A program made the position numbers and the translations under genes. The notes beneath the pieces are model-generated. The model was not told the origin of the DNA and searched no databases. It worked only from the letters and a program-made list of their open reading frames with translations. Source: Christensenellales bacterium (GTDB lineage Bacteria; Bacillota; Clostridia; Christensenellales; UBA1750). From it: a stretch of 49,816 nucleotides of DNA. Every line of letters starts with the position of its first letter. The stretch's first letter is position 1. Positions 6,541 to 40,549 of the stretch are shown in pieces. The DNA is taken from contig JBNRMU010000051.1 of assembly GCA_050309765.1 (NCBI GenBank), positions 1 to 49,816 on the forward strand, read 5' to 3'.

Positions 6541-9018
6541 TTACGGGATTGCCGGCGTCCAGTAGCTTTGGCAATAGATGTCGGTGAACAGATACATGGC
6601 GCTGGCCCGCTCGCTGTCGATATAAACGTTGCTGATCACAAGATCCTCGCTGTATTTCAGCGGCGCATCGGTCAGGCGGTAGCTGTCCTGATATTGGCCG
6701 TCGTAGCTGTAATAATCGCAGAGGAAGTAGATTTCGTCGCCCTCTACAAGCTCCAGATCGCTCTTGGAGACGGTCTCCGTTTCGCCGTTCACATAGGCGC
6801 TGGTGGCGCCGGCGATGTAGCCGTAGGGGTTGTCGCTGTCAAAGACCAAGAGCAGGTCGGCACGGCTGCCGTTCAGCAGCACGGGCACGCGGCCGGTGAT
6901 GGTGTATTTGTCGCCGTCCTGCACGGTGTCCACGTGGTAGTAGGCTACGGGCTGGTCGTCGATGGCCAGCCAGGTGCCGTCAAAGGCGCCCAGCAGCGTG
7001 CCGTCGTTCGTGAACTCAAACACATTGTCAAGGCCCAGATCGATATAGCCCTCGCCGTCGTCATAGAAGACGTTCAGCTCCAGATCGTCCACTAGGGACC
7101 ACTGTTCTTCGGTCAGAAGCATCTGGTAAACGCCGTCGCGCTGTGTCCACACCAGTGCGGCGGGATCGAAGCGGTTCTCGGAAAGGTACTGGGTGGCGCT
7201 GTCCACGTCCAGATTGCGGCCGAGGAAGTTCGCGCTGGAACCGGAGCCGCCAAAGCCGGACAGGCCGGACACATCGCCGCCGAGCAAGCTGCCGAGCAGG
7301 CTGCCGATGTCCATGCCGGGCAGGCTCTGACCGGAGGAACCGAGCAGCGTGGGCAGGGGGGACGCCGCGCCGCCGGACACGGCCTGGCCGCCCACTTCCA
7401 TGCTGGCAAACTGCTGGATGCAACGGGTGTATTCGCTGTCCAGGCCGATGGCGTCAAAGGCGGAAACGGCGCTATCCACGCGCGAGACCTTCTGGTAGGG
7501 GAAGTAGATGGCAAGCCCGTAGGCGTCGGTCATGTTGGCAGAGGTTTTGTTGTACTTGACCGCGCCCAATATGGCCTGCGCCAGCGCGCGGCTCTGCTCG
7601 GTATCCAGATTGTGGGCCAGATGCACCAGGTCCACCTGGTCGGTCTTGCTGGAGGTGGCAAACTCGCGGGTGCTGCTGCGCGCTTTGGAAACGGTCTTGT
7701 ACTCGCTTTGCTGCAACAGATCGGAGAGATTCAGGGCAAATTCGCGGAACTTGGATGGCACGGTCTTTTCCAGCTCGGCCAGGTCCACCACGGATAGCGT
7801 GGCCTTCTGGCCGCTGCAGCGCTGGCTGCATACGCCCACAAAGTCGTCCACGATGGCCTTGCCGACCTCTACCGTGGGCATGGAGGGGTTCTGGGCAAAG
7901 GCGCTCAGCCAGTTGGTGTAGTACCAGCCGGCGCCGGGCTCCGTTTCCTCGGAGGCGACGAGATAGTCCGCATAGGGCGCCAAGGTGAGGGCGTTTTCCA
8001 GCGTGCCCATCAGGCAGGTGTCAAAGCCGATAAAATCAAAGGTCGTGCCCGCGGCAGAGAGCGCCTCGTCGATCTTTTTGAGGGTCATGGAGCCGCTGCG
8101 GGGGTTCTTTTCGTCGTAGCCGTAGCCGCTGATGGCACCGCCGCCGTGGTCCCAGAAGATGAGCTCGTTGCGGTTGGCGGGGAAGTTTTCCGTGCAGAAG
8201 TTGATGAAATGGGTCAGCGTCTTGGGGTCGGTCATGACGGCGTTGCCGTCGTTTTTGACCAGGCAGCGCAAACCGCCGTTTTCGACCTTGTAGATCTGGT
8301 TGGCAGAGCTGGAGACGACGTTGTTCTTCCACTGTTTGCTGCCGCCGGTATAGACGAGCACGTTCACATGGTCGTTCAGCTTGGCGGAGACCATCTCCAT
8401 CAGGTCGGCGGAAGCCGCGCCGCTTCTGGATTCCAGATCGGCGCCGCAGATGTATACCATGATGGTTACCTGGTCCTGGCCGTTACCCAGAATCTGGGTG
8501 CGTTTTTCGCGGGCGGAGGCATCCACGGAGGTATTGAGCTTGCCCGTGTTGGGCGTTTCGCTCCAGCCGGTGGAAACGTTGCCCGCGCCGCTGCCGAGCA
8601 GGCTGGCAAAGTCAAAGCCCTGCGCGCCGTAGGCACTTGCGCTCGTCAAACCGCTGGAGGTGCTTTGCGAGGCGCCGCCTTGACTGCTGCTGTAGGGTTG
8701 CTGTTGCTGCTGCACATAGGCGCTGCTGGGCGCGGTGACGGGTTCGGAACCGCCGCCGCCGAGCAGACCGCCCAAGGCCCCGCCGCCGCCCAGCAGCAGC
8801 ACTGCTGCGGCGATGAGGATCTTCATCAGCGAACCGCCGCCGGAGGCGCGGGTCTGTCCGGAGCTTTTGCCGGAGGACGGCGGACGCCGTCCGGAATAAT
8901 TGCCGCCGGAACCGCTGCCGTGGCCGACGGGACCACTGCCAAGCCCGCTGCCGTGTTTTTGGATGGGCTTACCGGTGCCGGTAACGTTTTTTTGTCTGCC
9001 CAAAGGTCTGTTTTGCAT
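6541..9018 (-). CDS. Membrane-anchored clostripain-family (peptidase C11) cysteine protease, 825 aa
   Basis: ORF 6541..9144. Start moved to MQNRPLGRQ, preceded by GGGAGGGAAA. Catalytic-type motifs IFWDHGGGAISGYGYD (His) and FDFIGFDTCLMG (Cys). One TM helix (ILIAAAVLLLGGGGALGGLL) follows a Gly/Ser-rich N-terminus. Confidence 0.75.
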   Translation of the reverse strand: MQNRPLGRQKNVTGTGKPIQKHGSGLGSGPVGHGSGSGGNYSGRRPPSSGKSSGQTRASGGGSLMKILIAAAVLLLGGGGALGGLLGGGGSEPVTAPSSAYVQQQQQPYSSSQGGASQSTSSGLTSASAYGAQGFDFASLLGSGAGNVSTGWSETPNTGKLNTSVDASAREKRTQILGNGQDQVTIMVYICGADLESRSGAASADLMEMVSAKLNDHVNVLVYTGGSKQWKNNVVSSSANQIYKVENGGLRCLVKNDGNAVMTDPKTLTHFINFCTENFPANRNELIFWDHGGGAISGYGYDEKNPRSGSMTLKKIDEALSAAGTTFDFIGFDTCLMGTLENALTLAPYADYLVASEETEPGAGWYYTNWLSAFAQNPSMPTVEVGKAIVDDFVGVCSQRCSGQKATLSVVDLAELEKTVPSKFREFALNLSDLLQQSEYKTVSKARSSTREFATSSKTDQVDLVHLAHNLDTEQSRALAQAILGAVKYNKTSANMTDAYGLAIYFPYQKVSRVDSAVSAFDAIGLDSEYTRCIQQFASMEVGGQAVSGGAASPLPTLLGSSGQSLPGMDIGSLLGSLLGGDVSGLSGFGGSGSSANFLGRNLDVDSATQYLSENRFDPAALVWTQRDGVYQMLLTEEQWSLVDDLELNVFYDDGEGYIDLGLDNVFEFTNDGTLLGAFDGTWLAIDDQPVAYYHVDTVQDGDKYTITGRVPVLLNGSRADLLLVFDSDNPYGYIAGATSAYVNGETETVSKSDLELVEGDEIYFLCDYYSYDGQYQDSYRLTDAPLKYSEDLVISNVYIDSERASAMYLFTDIYCQSYWTPAIP

Positions 9019-9149
9019 TCGTTTCCCTCCCAGTGAAGAGACGTATTTTGCTGAACGCGGCCGCATGAAAGACATGCGGTGTAAATGCTCTAATGAAAGC
9101 CGCCGCGCAGGCGGTGATCCGGCGCAGGCACGGCTCTTGCACACCCTTT

Positions 9150-9179
9150 ATTGTAGCAATTTGCGACCGCAATCGTCAA
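9150..9179 (-). promoter_or_regulatory. Candidate extended -10 promoter for the C11 peptidase gene (TTGACG-N18-TGcTACAAT)
   Basis: Read on the coding strand in the mirror copy at 40638-40667. Leaves a leader of about 130 nt. Confidence 0.5.
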
Positions 9180-9218: not shown

Positions 9219-9250
9219 CAAAAACAAAACCGGCGTCCAAGGGACGCCGG
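9219..9250 (-). terminator. Rho-independent terminator after the SDR gene
   Basis: CCGGCGTCC-ctt-GGACGCCGG followed by TTTTGTTTTTG on the coding strand. Confidence 0.8.
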
Positions 9251-9267: not shown

Positions 9268-10059
9268 TTATCTTGCGTAGAGCAGGCCCACGATCCAGTT
9301 GGATAGGCGGCGGGGCAACAGCTTTGCCAGCAGCGCTGCGCACTTGTAGGAAAAACCCAGGGCCACCAGCGGCCGGCTGCGAGGCTTTAGGGCGAGGCGA
9401 GCAATGGCCTTGCCGGCGATATCCGGCGACATGCCGCCCCTTTCGTCGCGCTCCATGCCGGCGACGGAGCGCTGGATGCGGCCGGCGTAAACGTCGTCGC
9501 CTTCCTCGGACTTGACCCGCGCGTCCGTAAAGCCGGAGGCGATATCGCCCGGGAGCACGGCGCACACCGAGATGTGAAAGGGCCGAAGCTCGTTTTGCAG
9601 GGCCAGGCAATAGGAGATGAGGGCGGACTTGCTCACGCTGTACCACAGCTGGAAGGGGATGGGCAGGATGCCGGCGATGGAGCTCACGCACACGATGCGG
9701 CCGCCGCCCTGCCGGCGCATGGCAGGCAGCACGGCGCGCGTCACGTTGTCGGTGCCGAACAGGTTCAGCTCCAGCTGGGCGTGCGAGGCAGCGGGCTGCG
9801 TGGTTTCGGCCGCGCCTGAGATGCCAAAGCCGGCGTTGTTGATAAGGATGTCGATGCGGCCCTCATTTGTCAGCACCTGATCGACCGCCTGCCGGACCTG
9901 CATTTCCTGCGTGATGTCGCAGGAAATGTGAAAGACCCCTTCGCTGGGGCGGTCGCGGCGGGAAAACTCATACACGGTCAGACCCGCTTTTTGCAGCTGC
10001 TGCGCCGTGCTGCGGCCGATGCCCTCGCTGCCGCCGGTAACGATGGCGACCTTTTTCAT
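9268..10059 (-). CDS. Classical short-chain dehydrogenase/reductase (263 aa); possible 3-keto-amino-lipid reductase by context
   Basis: ORF 9268..10152. Start at MKKVAIVTGGSEGIGRS (TGxxxGIG), with NNAG and YSVSK (YxxxK) motifs. The ATG overlaps the upstream stop as ATGA (translational coupling). Confidence 0.8.
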   Translation of the reverse strand: MKKVAIVTGGSEGIGRSTAQQLQKAGLTVYEFSRRDRPSEGVFHISCDITQEMQVRQAVDQVLTNEGRIDILINNAGFGISGAAETTQPAASHAQLELNLFGTDNVTRAVLPAMRRQGGGRIVCVSSIAGILPIPFQLWYSVSKSALISYCLALQNELRPFHISVCAVLPGDIASGFTDARVKSEEGDDVYAGRIQRSVAGMERDERGGMSPDIAGKAIARLALKPRSRPLVALGFSYKCAALLAKLLPRRLSNWIVGLLYAR

Positions 10060-11234
10060 GCCTTGGCACCTATGATGTTGCCGATGATCTCGACGGCTTC
10101 GTCGATGAGCGGCTTGGTGAGCGAGGCCATGTAACTGGTGCGCAGCAGGCACTCATTGGGCGCGGCGGCCGGCGGAAGCACGGGATTGACGTACACGCCC
10201 GCCTCGTAAAGCTGCTGGGCCTTGATGAGCGTGTTGTCCGGTTCATAGGTGTAGATAGGCACGATGGGGGTGATGGCCTCGATGATGGGCACCTGCCTGG
10301 CCTTGAGCCCGGCCCGCGCATAGGCAGCCAGATCGCGCAGCTTTTCCGGCAGCTCCGGATGGGCCTTTAAATGGCGCAGCGCCGCCTGGGCGACCGCACA
10401 GGCAGAGGGCGGGATGGAGGCGGAAAAGATAAAGGGGCGCGAGTTGTGCCGCACATAATCGCATACCTGTTCGCTGGCGGCCATATAGCCGCCCAGGCTG
10501 GCCAGGGACTTGGAGAAGGTGCCCATGATGACGTCCACCTCGTCGTCCAGACCGAAGTAGCTGGCGGTGCCGCGACCGCCCTCGCCGATCACGCCCAGGC
10601 CGTGGGCGTCGTCCACCATGACGCGCGCGCCGTACTCCCTGGCCAAACGCACGATCTCGGGGAGATTTGCGATGTCGCCACCCATGGAGAACACGCCGTC
10701 GGTCACGATGAGGATGCCGGCGTTCTCCTGGCTGACGCGCTCCAGGATGGACTTCAGGTGCTCCATGTCCGCATGGCGGTAGCGCAGCATTTTGCCATAG
10801 CTCAAGCGACAGCCGTCGTAGATGCTGGCGTGGTTTTCGCGGTCGCAGATCACATAATCGTTGTGGCCCACCAACGCGCTGATGATGCCCAGATTGGACT
10901 GAAAACCGGTGGAGAAGGTGACCGCGCTTTCCTTATGCACGAAGTCGGCCAGCTCTTTTTCCAACTCCAAATGCATCTGCAGGGTGCCGTTCAGAAAGCG
11001 CGAGCCGGAGCAGCCGGTGCCGTAGCGCTCAAAGGCCTTGATGCCGGCCTCCACGATGGAGGGTTCCGTCGTCAGCCCCAGGTAGTTGTTGGAGCCCAGC
11101 ATGATGCGGCGCTTGCCTTCCATGATGACCTCCACATCCTGCCGGGATTGCAGGGCCCGGAAATAAGGATAGATGCCCATGGCCCTGTACTCGTTCGCCT
11201 TGGTGAAGTTTGCGCATTTGTCGAATAAGTCCAT
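10056..11234 (-). CDS. PLP-dependent alpha-oxoamine synthase, serine-palmitoyltransferase-like (392 aa)
   Basis: ORF 10056..11729. Start moved to MDLFDKCANF with GGAGG 6 nt upstream. Motifs: YPYFRALQS, GSNNYLGL, NHASIYDGC, DDAHGLG, and GTFSKSLASLGG (PLP lysine). From memory these resemble bacterial SPT more than BioF or Kbl. Confidence 0.7.
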   Translation of the reverse strand: MDLFDKCANFTKANEYRAMGIYPYFRALQSRQDVEVIMEGKRRIMLGSNNYLGLTTEPSIVEAGIKAFERYGTGCSGSRFLNGTLQMHLELEKELADFVHKESAVTFSTGFQSNLGIISALVGHNDYVICDRENHASIYDGCRLSYGKMLRYRHADMEHLKSILERVSQENAGILIVTDGVFSMGGDIANLPEIVRLAREYGARVMVDDAHGLGVIGEGGRGTASYFGLDDEVDVIMGTFSKSLASLGGYMAASEQVCDYVRHNSRPFIFSASIPPSACAVAQAALRHLKAHPELPEKLRDLAAYARAGLKARQVPIIEAITPIVPIYTYEPDNTLIKAQQLYEAGVYVNPVLPPAAAPNECLLRTSYMASLTKPLIDEAVEIIGNIIGAKA

Positions 11235-11380
11235 AAGATACCTCCGTGCTATATAAATAAACTGGAATAGGAATGAGATCAGGCTATGCGTATAAAAGAT
11301 AAACAGGAAGCCATCCCAAATGGTAAACATATCAAAAATTCGACGATTTGTCTCAATTAACCCGTATCGTTCTATGCCAA

Positions 11381-11409
11381 AGTATAGCATAAATGTAAAT
11401 TCTCTGCAA
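11381..11409 (-). promoter_or_regulatory. Near-consensus extended -10 promoter for the SPT-like/SDR operon (TTGCAG-N17-TGcTATACT)
   Basis: Read on the coding strand in the mirror copy at 38408-38436. Lies about 147 nt upstream of the start codon. Confidence 0.5.
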
Positions 11410-11479
11410 ACTGCCATAAGCTTTTTAGAAAAAGGAGAGGCCGACAGATGATCCGCAGCAGTTTTTGTATTCTTTGGAA

Positions 11480-11518
11480 TGGAAAAGCGGCCCTTATCAA
11501 AGGATAAGGGCCGCTTTT
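11480..11518 (-). terminator. Rho-independent terminator after the DUF4340-like gene
   Basis: AAAAGCGGCCCTTATC...GATAAGGGCCGCTTTT followed by a T-tract on the coding strand. Confidence 0.8.
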
Positions 11519-11529
11519 GCGTATCGCTT

Positions 11530-24834: not shown

Positions 24835-24908
24835 ATGCAGCGGTTATTCAGGGCGATGCTGCCGTTTGCGATAAGCGGGTTCCTGCTCCTTATGCTGTTG
24901 CGGCCGGC
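24835..24908 (+). pseudogene. 5' fragment of a divergently transcribed gene, cut by the palindrome axis (MQRLFRAMLPFAISGFLLLMLLRP...)
   Basis: AGGGGGAG RBS at 24821-24828, ATG at 24835, then 24 codons of a signal-peptide/TM-like sequence. Reading then passes into its own reverse complement and stops at TAA 24925-24927. Confidence 0.6.
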
Positions 24909-38582: not shown

Positions 38583-39761
38583 ATGGACTTATTCGACAAA
38601 TGCGCAAACTTCACCAAGGCGAACGAGTACAGGGCCATGGGCATCTATCCTTATTTCCGGGCCCTGCAATCCCGGCAGGATGTGGAGGTCATCATGGAAG
38701 GCAAGCGCCGCATCATGCTGGGCTCCAACAACTACCTGGGGCTGACGACGGAACCCTCCATCGTGGAGGCCGGCATCAAGGCCTTTGAGCGCTACGGCAC
38801 CGGCTGCTCCGGCTCGCGCTTTCTGAACGGCACCCTGCAGATGCATTTGGAGTTGGAAAAAGAGCTGGCCGACTTCGTGCATAAGGAAAGCGCGGTCACC
38901 TTCTCCACCGGTTTTCAGTCCAATCTGGGCATCATCAGCGCGTTGGTGGGCCACAACGATTATGTGATCTGCGACCGCGAAAACCACGCCAGCATCTACG
39001 ACGGCTGTCGCTTGAGCTATGGCAAAATGCTGCGCTACCGCCATGCGGACATGGAGCACCTGAAGTCCATCCTGGAGCGCGTCAGCCAGGAGAACGCCGG
39101 CATCCTCATCGTGACCGACGGCGTGTTCTCCATGGGTGGCGACATCGCAAATCTCCCCGAGATCGTGCGTTTGGCCAGGGAGTACGGCGCGCGCGTCATG
39201 GTGGACGACGCCCACGGCCTGGGCGTGATCGGCGAGGGCGGTCGCGGCACCGCCAGCTACTTCGGTCTGGACGACGAGGTGGACGTCATCATGGGCACCT
39301 TCTCCAAGTCCCTGGCCAGCCTGGGCGGCTATATGGCCGCCAGCGAACAGGTATGCGATTATGTGCGGCACAACTCGCGCCCCTTTATCTTTTCCGCCTC
39401 CATCCCGCCCTCTGCCTGTGCGGTCGCCCAGGCGGCGCTGCGCCATTTAAAGGCCCATCCGGAGCTGCCGGAAAAGCTGCGCGATCTGGCTGCCTATGCG
39501 CGGGCCGGGCTCAAGGCCAGGCAGGTGCCCATCATCGAGGCCATCACCCCCATCGTGCCTATCTACACCTATGAACCGGACAACACGCTCATCAAGGCCC
39601 AGCAGCTTTACGAGGCGGGCGTGTACGTCAATCCCGTGCTTCCGCCGGCCGCCGCGCCCAATGAGTGCCTGCTGCGCACCAGTTACATGGCCTCGCTCAC
39701 CAAGCCGCTCATCGACGAAGCCGTCGAGATCATCGGCAACATCATAGGTGCCAAGGCATGA
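38583..39761 (+). CDS. SPT-like alpha-oxoamine synthase (mirror copy)
   Basis: Exact mirror of 10056..11234. GGAGG at 38572-38576, ATG at 38583. Confidence 0.7.
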   Translation: MDLFDKCANFTKANEYRAMGIYPYFRALQSRQDVEVIMEGKRRIMLGSNNYLGLTTEPSIVEAGIKAFERYGTGCSGSRFLNGTLQMHLELEKELADFVHKESAVTFSTGFQSNLGIISALVGHNDYVICDRENHASIYDGCRLSYGKMLRYRHADMEHLKSILERVSQENAGILIVTDGVFSMGGDIANLPEIVRLAREYGARVMVDDAHGLGVIGEGGRGTASYFGLDDEVDVIMGTFSKSLASLGGYMAASEQVCDYVRHNSRPFIFSASIPPSACAVAQAALRHLKAHPELPEKLRDLAAYARAGLKARQVPIIEAITPIVPIYTYEPDNTLIKAQQLYEAGVYVNPVLPPAAAPNECLLRTSYMASLTKPLIDEAVEIIGNIIGAKA

Positions 39762-40549
39762 AAAAGGTCGCCATCGTTACCGGCGGCAGCGAGGGCATCG
39801 GCCGCAGCACGGCGCAGCAGCTGCAAAAAGCGGGTCTGACCGTGTATGAGTTTTCCCGCCGCGACCGCCCCAGCGAAGGGGTCTTTCACATTTCCTGCGA
39901 CATCACGCAGGAAATGCAGGTCCGGCAGGCGGTCGATCAGGTGCTGACAAATGAGGGCCGCATCGACATCCTTATCAACAACGCCGGCTTTGGCATCTCA
40001 GGCGCGGCCGAAACCACGCAGCCCGCTGCCTCGCACGCCCAGCTGGAGCTGAACCTGTTCGGCACCGACAACGTGACGCGCGCCGTGCTGCCTGCCATGC
40101 GCCGGCAGGGCGGCGGCCGCATCGTGTGCGTGAGCTCCATCGCCGGCATCCTGCCCATCCCCTTCCAGCTGTGGTACAGCGTGAGCAAGTCCGCCCTCAT
40201 CTCCTATTGCCTGGCCCTGCAAAACGAGCTTCGGCCCTTTCACATCTCGGTGTGCGCCGTGCTCCCGGGCGATATCGCCTCCGGCTTTACGGACGCGCGG
40301 GTCAAGTCCGAGGAAGGCGACGACGTTTACGCCGGCCGCATCCAGCGCTCCGTCGCCGGCATGGAGCGCGACGAAAGGGGCGGCATGTCGCCGGATATCG
40401 CCGGCAAGGCCATTGCTCGCCTCGCCCTAAAGCCTCGCAGCCGGCCGCTGGTGGCCCTGGGTTTTTCCTACAAGTGCGCAGCGCTGCTGGCAAAGCTGTT
40501 GCCCCGCCGCCTATCCAACTGGATCGTGGGCCTGCTCTACGCAAGATAA
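39758..40549 (+). CDS. Short-chain dehydrogenase/reductase (mirror copy)
   Basis: Exact mirror of 9268..10059. ATGA overlap at 39758-39761. Confidence 0.8.
   Translation: MKKVAIVTGGSEGIGRSTAQQLQKAGLTVYEFSRRDRPSEGVFHISCDITQEMQVRQAVDQVLTNEGRIDILINNAGFGISGAAETTQPAASHAQLELNLFGTDNVTRAVLPAMRRQGGGRIVCVSSIAGILPIPFQLWYSVSKSALISYCLALQNELRPFHISVCAVLPGDIASGFTDARVKSEEGDDVYAGRIQRSVAGMERDERGGMSPDIAGKAIARLALKPRSRPLVALGFSYKCAALLAKLLPRRLSNWIVGLLYAR

What the first reader, a model, noticed from the sequence alone, without database searches (positions are those of the whole stretch)
9268..11234. Translationally coupled SPT-like alpha-oxoamine synthase plus SDR: possible sphingoid- or capnoid-type amino-alcohol lipid pathway in a Clostridia-like genome
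Seen: a 392-aa PLP enzyme (mirror copy 38583..39761) ends in an ATGA overlap with a 263-aa classical SDR (mirror 39758..40549). The pair has its own near-consensus promoter and terminator, so it is a self-contained two-gene operon. Established knowledge: alpha-oxoamine synthases condense an amino acid with an acyl-CoA or acyl-ACP. In sphingolipid and sulfonolipid (capnine) pathways the 3-keto product is next reduced by an NAD(P)H-dependent reductase, which is exactly this gene logic. From memory, the motifs NHASIYDGC, GTFSKS(L/V)...GG around the PLP lysine, and the C-terminal GVYVN...PPA.P...LLR match bacterial serine palmitoyltransferase (e.g. the Sphingomonas enzyme) better than BioF (GTLSKA) or Kbl (GTLGKA). 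No bioA/bioD/bioB or tdh genes are adjacent. Inference: the product may be a long-chain amino alcohol. Such lipids are best known from Bacteroidota and some Proteobacteria, so a Firmicute example would be worth testing. The substrate amino acid cannot be told from the sequence.
Basis: partly seen in the sequence, partly recalled or inferred. Interest (0 to 1): 0.6.

Follow-up and report, generated by a model that had tools for sequence, protein, structure and literature searches.

The report
Sphingoid-base gene pair in gut Clostridia
An uncultured gut-type Clostridium carries a two-gene operon that closely resembles the first two enzymes of sphingolipid synthesis in Bacteroides, and the same pair is common in its order, so Gram-positive gut anaerobes may also make sphingosine-like lipids, though no chemistry has been done.

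Summary
A 392-aa alpha-oxoamine synthase (AOS, 11234..10056, minus strand) overlaps a 263-aa classical SDR (10059..9268) by ATGA. A promoter-like site and a strong terminator flank the pair. The "mirror copy" is an artefact: the whole contig is a perfect reverse-complement palindrome, so the genome has one copy.

The AOS is SPT-like, not BioF, Kbl or a cysteate acyltransferase:
- Its best family and best solved structure are Bacteroidota-type serine palmitoyltransferase (Sphingobacterium SPT, 50% identity, TM 0.96).
- 17 of 19 listed SPT active-site and pocket residues are identical.
- It falls in an SPT-like clade (99/94 support), apart from Kbl, BioF and HemA.
- The genome lacks bioB, bioA, bioD and tdh.

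The SDR scores best against Bacteroides 3-ketosphinganine reductase KdsR. Both proteins score below NCBI's curated cut-offs.

The AOS occurs in 120 of 401 sampled genomes of the order, and 110 of these also have a KdsR-like SDR. In 56 of 75 assessable named MAG loci the SDR is adjacent, in three different arrangements. No ceramide synthase partner was found.

One cultured carrier exists, Christensenella sp. MSJ-20. I found no paper reporting SPT in Clostridia. This scan has already flagged the same pair in other genomes.

Likely product: a sphinganine-type long-chain base. This is inferred, not shown.

The parts
11381..11410 (-). Promoter-like site: TTTGCA, 18-nt spacer, TATACT, with TG extended -10
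   Evidence: 9 of 12 matches. It lies about 147 nt upstream of the AOS start. This is a consensus match only.
11235..11380 (-). AT-rich 5' leader (the 11235-11529 intergenic stretch is 39% GC against 59% for the genome), with GGAGG 6 nt before the start codon
   Evidence: No Rfam family reached threshold. It folds no better than shuffled sequence, z = +1.25.
10056..11234 (-). SPT-like alpha-oxoamine synthase, 392 aa (P0001); PLP lysine K242 in GTFSKS
   Evidence: NF047600 518 bits. PDB 3A2B/8GUH E 2e-121. AF2 pLDDT 93.5 and TM 0.96 to 3A2B. SPT-like clade with 99/94 support.
9268..10059 (-). KdsR-like classical SDR, 263 aa (P0002); start overlaps the AOS stop (ATGA)
   Evidence: NF049977 KdsR 214 bits over its full length is the best family. 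TGxxxGIG, NNAG, Ser and YxxxK are conserved in 87 orthologs; Arg34 after strand 2 suggests NADPH.
9230..9250 (-). Intrinsic terminator-like hairpin followed by TTTTGTTTTT
   Evidence: 9-bp stem, 8 GC pairs, 3-nt loop.
38583..40549 (+). Mirror image of the same two genes; an assembly artefact, not a second locus
   Evidence: the window is identical to its own reverse complement. The centre is at 24908/24909.

Best explanation
The pair is a self-contained two-gene operon for making a sphingoid long-chain base.

Step 1 (inferred from homology): the PLP enzyme condenses an amino acid with a long-chain fatty acyl thioester (acyl-CoA or acyl-ACP). The amino acid is most likely L-serine. CO2 is lost and a 3-keto long-chain base (3-ketosphinganine type) is formed.

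Step 2 (inferred): the translationally coupled SDR, probably NADPH-dependent, reduces the 3-keto group to give a sphinganine-type amino diol. This is the eukaryote-like and Bacteroides KdsR-like order of steps.

The fate of the base is unknown. It could stay free, be N-acylated to a ceramide, or receive a head group. No ceramide synthase partner was identified.

Shown here: gene structure, family relationships, active-site conservation, fold, gene linkage and co-occurrence. Not shown: any substrate, product or lipid.
For: AOS:
- Best NCBIfam family is CFB-type SPT at 518 bits, against beta-proteobacterial SPT 391, BioF 373 and Kbl 364.
- Best PDB sequence hit is S. multivorum SPT at 409 bits. 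S. paucimobilis SPT scores 282, Kbl 242, cysteate acyltransferases 225-227 and BioF about 200.
- The AF2 model (pLDDT 93.5) matches 3A2B at TM 0.96, rmsd 1.5, 50% identity.
- S. multivorum SPT residues listed in PMC10196870 and PMC13692747 are kept: N49, Y51, G77, S78, F80, L81, N114, H135, S183, D208, A210, H211, T239, S241, K242, F270 and R365. Only A79->S76 and M271->I269 differ.
- In the careful ML tree the Oscillospirales clade groups with Phocaeicola SPT and ACP-linked proteobacterial SPT-like enzymes (99/94). Kbl (100/100) and BioF/HemA are separate.

SDR:
- KdsR is its best family and aligns over the full length.
- The catalytic tetrad is conserved.

Coupling:
- The SDR is adjacent in 56 of 75 assessable named MAG loci, in three different arrangements.
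- Order-wide, 110 of 120 AOS-positive genomes have a KdsR-like SDR, against 95 of 281 AOS-negative genomes.
- Five AOS-positive genomes with no adjacent SDR each carry an unlinked copy scoring 222-246 bits.
- Five AOS-negative genomes reach at most 107 bits.

Alternatives weakened:
- No bioB, bioA or bioD over cut-off and no true tdh.
- Relatives G008 and G009 carry a separate canonical tdh-kbl pair as well as this pair.

Possible acyl-CoA source: a long-chain-fatty-acid-CoA-ligase-like gene elsewhere in the genome.
Against: - Both proteins score below NCBI's curated equivalog cut-offs (518 < 640; 214 < 400).
- The tree has only one Bacteroidota SPT reference and no cysteate acyltransferase.
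- KdsR-like SDRs also occur in 95 genomes without the AOS, so the SDR family is broader than this pathway.
- No ceramide synthase, dedicated ACP or head-group gene is linked. No third gene is conserved in 100 loci.
- I found no report of sphingolipids in Clostridia in the library searched.
- Acyl chain length and the amino-acid substrate cannot be read from sequence. Ala79->Ser76 sits next to the substrate side chain.
Confidence: 0.6

Rival explanations
1. Same chemistry, different amino acid. The AOS would use glycine or alanine, giving 1-deoxy or 1-desoxymethyl long-chain bases, or cysteate, giving a capnine-type sulfonolipid base. The SDR would still reduce the ketone.
For: SPTs accept alanine and glycine at low efficiency (PMC10196870). 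Ala79, next to the substrate side chain, is Ser76 here. The cysteate enzymes belong to the same superfamily and also work with a ketoreductase (PMC13692747, PMC11211663).
Against: The serine-contacting network of S. multivorum SPT is otherwise identical. Cysteate acyltransferases score only 225-227 bits against 409 for SPT. The SPT-type FQSN (Asn117) motif is kept; the CFAT paper describes the corresponding local feature as absent from CFAT, whose side-chain pocket is remodelled.
Confidence: 0.15
2. A short- or medium-chain pathway. The AOS would condense an amino acid with a short acyl-CoA such as acetyl-, propionyl- or butyryl-CoA. The SDR would interconvert the aminoketone and a small amino alcohol or hydroxy amino acid. 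This would be a Kbl/Tdh-like catabolic or signalling module, not a lipid pathway.
For: The gene order AOS then dehydrogenase mirrors kbl-tdh. Butyrate-type anaerobes are rich in short acyl-CoAs (general knowledge). No lipid-specific partner genes are linked.
Against: The AOS lies outside the Kbl clade, which has 100/100 support. Relatives have a separate canonical tdh-kbl pair. The SDR matches KdsR over its full length, including the C-terminal part that FabG-type matches do not cover. The fold and pocket residues match a palmitoyl-CoA-using enzyme.
Confidence: 0.12
3. BioF: 8-amino-7-oxononanoate synthase for biotin synthesis, as some database records name close homologs.
For: Some sources name homologs '8-amino-7-oxononanoate synthase'. 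The bioF model scores 373 bits.
Against: That score is below the bioF cut-off of 426. E. coli BioF is on a distant branch. No bioB, bioA or bioD over cut-off was found in a genome that is 94% complete.
Confidence: 0.03

Closest known systems
Bacteroidota-type serine palmitoyltransferase (S. multivorum SPT, PDB 3A2B/8GUH; Bacteroides/Phocaeicola Spt; NCBIfam NF047600)
   Same: About 50% identity over the full length. Same fold (TM 0.96). Identical GTFSKSLASLGG PLP motif. 17 of 19 listed active-site and pocket residues are identical. Soluble, stand-alone enzyme with no dedicated ACP gene next to it.
   Different: The score of 518 bits is below the 640-bit equivalog cut-off. It forms its own Bacillota clade. 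Ala79->Ser and Met271->Ile. The host is a Gram-positive-type anaerobe with no outer membrane. Activity is untested.
Bacteroides thetaiotaomicron 3-ketosphinganine reductase KdsR (BT_0972; NF049977; PMC9278070)
   Same: Classical SDR of the same length. Best-scoring family, aligned end to end. Intact catalytic tetrad and an NADPH-type signature. The implied order of steps (reduce, then acylate) is the same.
   Different: Only 214 bits against a cut-off of 400. Here it is fused into one operon with the SPT, which I understand is not the case in B. thetaiotaomicron (locus tags BT_0870 and BT_0972, from my own knowledge). Related SDRs also occur in genomes without the AOS.
Proteobacterial sphingolipid clusters (Caulobacter Spt-ACP-CerR-bCerS; Roseomonas and Pseudomonas loci L041, L042)
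   Same: An SPT-like AOS starts the pathway and is clustered with a reductase.
   Different: Those clusters use a dedicated ACP, an acyl-ACP synthetase or FAAL, and an epimerase-family reductase (CerR) that acts after N-acylation (PMC11087976). None of these is linked here.
Cysteate fatty acyltransferase plus 3-ketocapnine reductase (sulfonolipid/capnine pathway)
   Same: Same enzyme superfamily and the same condensation-then-reduction logic.
   Different: Much lower similarity (225-227 bits). The remodelled cysteate pocket is not seen here; the serine-type motif is retained.
Kbl-Tdh threonine cleavage pair
   Same: An AOS gene followed by a dehydrogenase gene.
   Different: Different AOS clade. 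Tdh is a zinc MDR enzyme, not a classical SDR. Relatives carry a genuine tdh-kbl pair in addition to this pair.

Membership tests
Bacterial serine palmitoyltransferase (CFB type, NF047600) | Whole-protein score over the curated equivalog cut-off (640 bits) | tested here: not met
   518 bits. It is the best family but below cut-off. All hits in the own GTDB family are also below it.
Bacterial serine palmitoyltransferase (CFB type, NF047600) | Fold-type I AOS with the PLP lysine in the SPT-characteristic G-T-F-S-K-S motif, plus the His/Asp/His PLP cage | tested here: met
   K242 in GTFSKS; H135, D208 and H211 present. These are invariant in 41 orthologs.
Bacterial serine palmitoyltransferase (CFB type, NF047600) | Serine-binding network of S. 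multivorum SPT (Asn52, Tyr54, Gly80, Ser81, Asn117, Ser185, Thr241, Ser243, Met271, Arg for the carboxylate) | tested here: met
   All identical except Met271->Ile269, which Phocaeicola SPT also has. The neighbouring Ala79 is Ser76 (PMC10196870).
Bacterial serine palmitoyltransferase (CFB type, NF047600) | Phylogenetic placement with known SPTs, apart from Kbl, BioF and HemA | tested here: met
   SPT-like clade with UFBoot 99 / SH-aLRT 94. The reference set is small: one Bacteroidota SPT and no cysteate acyltransferase.
Bacterial serine palmitoyltransferase (CFB type, NF047600) | Closest structure is an SPT | tested here: met
   3A2B at TM 0.96, rmsd 1.5, 50% identity. Kbl and BioF structures show 29-36% identity.
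Bacterial serine palmitoyltransferase (CFB type, NF047600) | Condenses L-serine with a long-chain acyl thioester; the organism contains sphingoid bases | not testable with these tools
   Needs an enzyme assay and lipidomics.
3-ketodihydrosphingosine reductase KdsR (NF049977) | Score over the curated cut-off (400 bits) | tested here: not met
   214 bits. It is the best family; the next is PRK06179 at 184. Orthologs in the order score about 213-307 bits.
3-ketodihydrosphingosine reductase KdsR (NF049977) | Classical SDR with a Gly-rich dinucleotide motif and the Asn-Ser-Tyr-Lys tetrad | tested here: met
   TGGSEGIG, NNAG, Ser in VSS and YSVSK are conserved in 87 orthologs.
3-ketodihydrosphingosine reductase KdsR (NF049977) | Functional association with an SPT | tested here: met
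   ATGA overlap here. Adjacent in 56 of 75 assessable loci. Co-occurs in 110 of 120 AOS-positive genomes against 95 of 281 AOS-negative ones. Related genomes are not independent samples.
BioF (8-amino-7-oxononanoate synthase) | Score over the bioF cut-off, and a biotin pathway (bioA, bioD, bioB) in the genome | tested here: not met
   373 < 426 bits. No bioB, bioA or bioD over cut-off in a genome that is 94% complete.
Kbl (glycine C-acetyltransferase) | Score over the Kbl cut-off, placement in the Kbl clade, and a partner threonine dehydrogenase | tested here: not met
   364 < 460 bits. Outside the 100/100 Kbl clade. The best Tdh-like hit in the genome is 34% identical.
Cysteate fatty acyltransferase (CFAT / SulA / CapB) | Remodelled side-chain pocket and closer similarity to CFAT than to SPT | tested here: not met
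   225-227 bits against 409 for SPT. The SPT-type FQSN motif with Asn117 is retained.

The most novel reading that the evidence does not exclude
Oscillospirales and scattered other Bacillota, including wall-less Bacilli-type MAGs, are an overlooked second source of sphingoid bases or sphingolipids in gut, rumen and digester communities. They would use an SPT-KdsR operon without the known bacterial ceramide synthase, so any N-acylation would need an enzyme of a new kind.
Probability: 0.45. Interest if true: 0.75.

Novelty: new member of a known kind. Interest (0 to 1): 0.55.

Why it matters
Gut bacterial sphingolipids enter host lipid metabolism and shape immunity. They are currently attributed mainly to Bacteroidota (PMC10865984, PMC10191378).

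If about 30% of Oscillospirales species also make sphingoid bases, three things follow. Host-microbe sphingolipid budgets and metagenomic 'spt' counts would need revision. Sphingolipids would be shown to have a role in bacteria that lack an outer membrane. There would be a reason to look for an unknown ceramide-forming enzyme.

The claim can be tested directly, because a cultured carrier exists (Christensenella sp. MSJ-20) and an E. coli co-expression assay for SPT plus KdsR is published (PMC9278070).

Tried and rejected
- Riboswitch or T-box in the AT-rich leader that might name the substrate: no Rfam match and no stable fold.
- Linked third gene (ACP, ligase, N-acyltransferase): none is conserved in 21 loci of up to 19 kb (20 fetched plus the window's unique half) or in 80 loci with 3-kb flanks. 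A MarR/FabT-like regulator lies upstream in 9 of 100 loci.
- Ceramide synthase search. My guess that bCerS belongs to PF13444 was wrong, because Caulobacter does not ring for that family. The hypothetical protein in the Roseomonas cluster has no NCBIfam model. There is no Condensation-domain protein in the genome. So 'no CerS found' is weak evidence.
- Recent horizontal transfer. The pair's GC3 (0.84) equals that of housekeeping genes. The contig is correctly binned: dnaE is 81-82% identical to the same-genus genomes. Those two genomes lack both genes, but synteny ends after pfkA, so a clean insertion or deletion could not be shown.
- Named references for S. multivorum, S. paucimobilis and cysteate enzymes could not be put in the tree, because no sequence reference was available. 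PDB-based scores were used instead.
- The search for related loci returned only Bacillota-type MAGs and no Bacteroidota.
- Stankeviciute et al. 2022 is not held in the library.
Full report
**What is in the sequence**

On the minus strand an ATG at 11234, preceded by GGAGG, opens a 392-codon frame that ends at TGA 10058..10056. The ATG of a 263-codon frame lies at 10059..10057, so the two genes overlap by ATGA.

A 9-bp, GC-rich hairpin followed by a T-run sits 18 nt after the second stop. A promoter-like site (TTTGCA-18-TATACT with a TG extended -10, 9 of 12 matches) lies about 147 nt upstream of the first start. The AT-rich leader between them matches no Rfam family and folds no better than shuffled sequence.

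The 49,816-base window is a whole contig of a genome assembly that is 94% complete in 187 contigs, and it is exactly its own reverse complement. Only 24,908 bases are unique, and the genome has one alpha-oxoamine synthase (AOS).

The neighbours are housekeeping or unrelated genes: dnaE, pfkA, an MBL-fold protein, a C11 peptidase, a DUF4340 protein with ABC transporter genes, and ackA.

**The first enzyme**

Among NCBI's curated families the best match is the Bacteroidota (CFB) serine palmitoyltransferase (SPT):

| Family | Bits |
|---|---|
| CFB-type SPT | 518 |
| Beta-proteobacterial SPT | 391 |
| BioF | 373 |
| Kbl | 364 |

The 518 bits is below that model's 640-bit cut-off.

Among solved structures the best sequence match is Sphingobacterium multivorum SPT:

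| Structure | Bits |
|---|---|
| S. multivorum SPT | 409 (E 2e-121) |
| S. paucimobilis SPT | 282 |
| Kbl | 242 |
| Cysteate acyltransferases | 225-227 |
| BioF | about 200 |

An AlphaFold model built on 41 orthologs (pLDDT 93.5) superposes on 3A2B at TM 0.96 with 50% identity. Kbl and BioF structures share 29-36% identity.

The residues that hold PLP and L-serine in the S. multivorum enzyme (PMC10196870) are present: N49, Y51, G77, S78, F80, L81, N114, H135, S183, D208, A210, H211, T239, S241, K242, F270 and R365. Only Ala79->Ser76 and Met271->Ile269 differ. The Asn117-containing FQSN motif is retained; the CFAT structure paper reports the corresponding local feature as absent from cysteate enzymes (PMC13692747).

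In a careful ML tree of 40 proteins, the Oscillospirales sequences group with Phocaeicola SPT and ACP-linked proteobacterial SPT-like enzymes (UFBoot 99 / SH-aLRT 94). E. coli and Paracoccus Kbl form a separate 100/100 clade, together with two Oscillospirales paralogs. E. coli BioF and Agrobacterium HemA lie further out. The reference set is small, and I had no cysteate enzyme sequence to include.

**Ruling out the ordinary roles**

The genome has no bioB, bioA or bioD over cut-off. It has no true threonine dehydrogenase; the best hit is 34% identical.

In two genomes of the same family, the Kbl-clade paralog sits next to a Tdh that is 63-65% identical to the E. coli enzyme. The SPT-like gene with its SDR lies elsewhere in those genomes. 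The two systems therefore coexist and are distinct.

**The second enzyme**

The SDR's best family is the Bacteroides 3-ketodihydrosphingosine reductase KdsR. It scores 214 bits, aligned end to end, against a cut-off of 400. The next family scores 184.

The glycine motif, NNAG, the catalytic Ser and YxxxK are conserved in 87 orthologs. So is an Arg after strand 2, which suggests NADPH use.

**Linkage and distribution**

The AOS was found in 120 of 401 sampled genomes of the same order, covering 67 of 173 genera, at 50-77% identity. In the window's own GTDB family it was found in 4 of 20 genomes, counting the window's own, and in neither of the two same-genus genomes. Outside the order it was found in 9 of 300 genomes sampled from the rest of the phylum.

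Among 80 named MAG loci, the SDR was placed as follows:

| Position of the SDR | Loci |
|---|---|
| Directly downstream of the AOS | 46 |
| Upstream, same strand | 5 |
| Upstream, divergent | 5 |
| Not within 3 kb | 19 |
| Locus ends at a contig end | 5 |

Five AOS-positive genomes without an adjacent SDR each have an unlinked KdsR-like SDR of 222-246 bits. Five AOS-negative genomes reach at most 107 bits.

Order-wide, 110 of 120 AOS-positive genomes have a KdsR-like SDR, against 95 of 281 AOS-negative genomes (odds ratio about 21). Related genomes are not independent samples, and the SDR family is clearly broader than the AOS.

No third gene is conserved near the pair. A MarR/FabT-like regulator lies upstream in 9 of 100 loci.

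The named relatives are almost all uncultured MAGs: Faecousia sp. (84% identity), Oscillospiraceae, Ruminococcaceae, Christensenellales, and also Acholeplasmataceae, Izemoplasmatales and Bacilli MAGs. One carrier is cultured: Christensenella sp. MSJ-20, protein QWT54904.1.

**Origin**

The contig is correctly binned. Its dnaE is 81-82% identical to the two same-genus genomes. The pair's GC3 equals that of the housekeeping genes. Synteny with the same-genus genomes ends just after pfkA, so gain and loss cannot be told apart.

**Mechanism and limits**

The most economical reading has two steps. Serine, or a close analogue, is condensed with a long-chain acyl thioester to give a 3-keto base. The ketone is then reduced to a sphinganine-type base. 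This is the eukaryote-like and Bacteroides KdsR-like order of steps (PMC9278070).

A long-chain-fatty-acid-CoA-ligase-like gene and an MbcS-like ligase elsewhere in the genome could supply acyl-CoA. Acyl-ACP is equally possible.

I could not identify a ceramide synthase. My family guess failed its control, there is no Condensation-domain protein, and I had no bCerS reference. The fate of the base therefore remains open.

From memory only, and not verified here: a phosphosphingolipid was described in Acholeplasma axanthum around 1970. That would fit the homologs found in Acholeplasmataceae MAGs.

**Literature and earlier notes**

Nine full-text searches found no paper that reports SPT or sphingolipids in Clostridia. 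A tenth query was rejected as malformed. Reviews attribute gut sphingolipids to Bacteroidota. [quoted passage not shown]

This scan has flagged the same pair on other genomes before, and follow-up agents reached the same reading. Some of those loci carry extra ligase, ACP and acyltransferase genes that are not present here.

**Verdict**

This is a new, untested member of a known pathway type in an unexpected phylum.

Noticed in passing
window 1-49816 (centre 24908/24909): The whole contig is a perfect reverse-complement palindrome with 0 mismatches. This is a fold-back assembly artefact, so every gene in the window appears twice and copy numbers read from this contig are doubled.
   Followed up: yes
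window 11235-11529: The intergenic region upstream of the AOS is 39% GC in a 59% GC genome and includes a 147-nt leader. It has no Rfam match and no stable predicted structure, so its role is unexplained.
   Followed up: partly
L008 and L009 (G008:C97, G009:C55): Same-family genomes carry a canonical tdh-kbl pair (Tdh 63-65% identical to E. coli Tdh) in addition to the SPT-like/SDR pair.
   Followed up: yes
L040 (NZ_CP141089.1, E. coli KE47, 2921235-2922383): A 4.9-Mb record filed as a 'plasmid' is evidently a chromosome. It encodes an AOS that clusters with a Pseudomonas plasmid AOS, which is flanked by fatty acyl-AMP ligase, epimerase-family reductase and carrier-protein genes (L042). This is a proteobacterial SPT-like cluster.
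   Followed up: partly
L043 (Phocaeicola dorei conjugative plasmid pBdorCL06T03-3, 3803-5035): A very divergent AOS (long branch) lies next to a TetR regulator and near a MAC/perforin-domain protein on a conjugative plasmid. Its function is unknown.
   Followed up: no
G024:C1:172254-173420: The AOS ortholog (56% identity) in this genome has one in-frame TGA, and no KdsR-like SDR was found in that genome. It may be a decaying copy or a recoded codon.
   Followed up: no
window 6541-9144 (-): An 867-aa protein with a clostripain-family (peptidase C11) domain lies directly downstream of the operon's terminator. It has its own promoter-like site at 9179..9150.
   Followed up: no
L115:2555-3001 and 8 other loci: A 148-aa MarR-family regulator with weak similarity to the fatty-acid regulator FabT lies immediately upstream of the AOS in 9 of 100 loci. 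It is absent from this window.
   Followed up: partly
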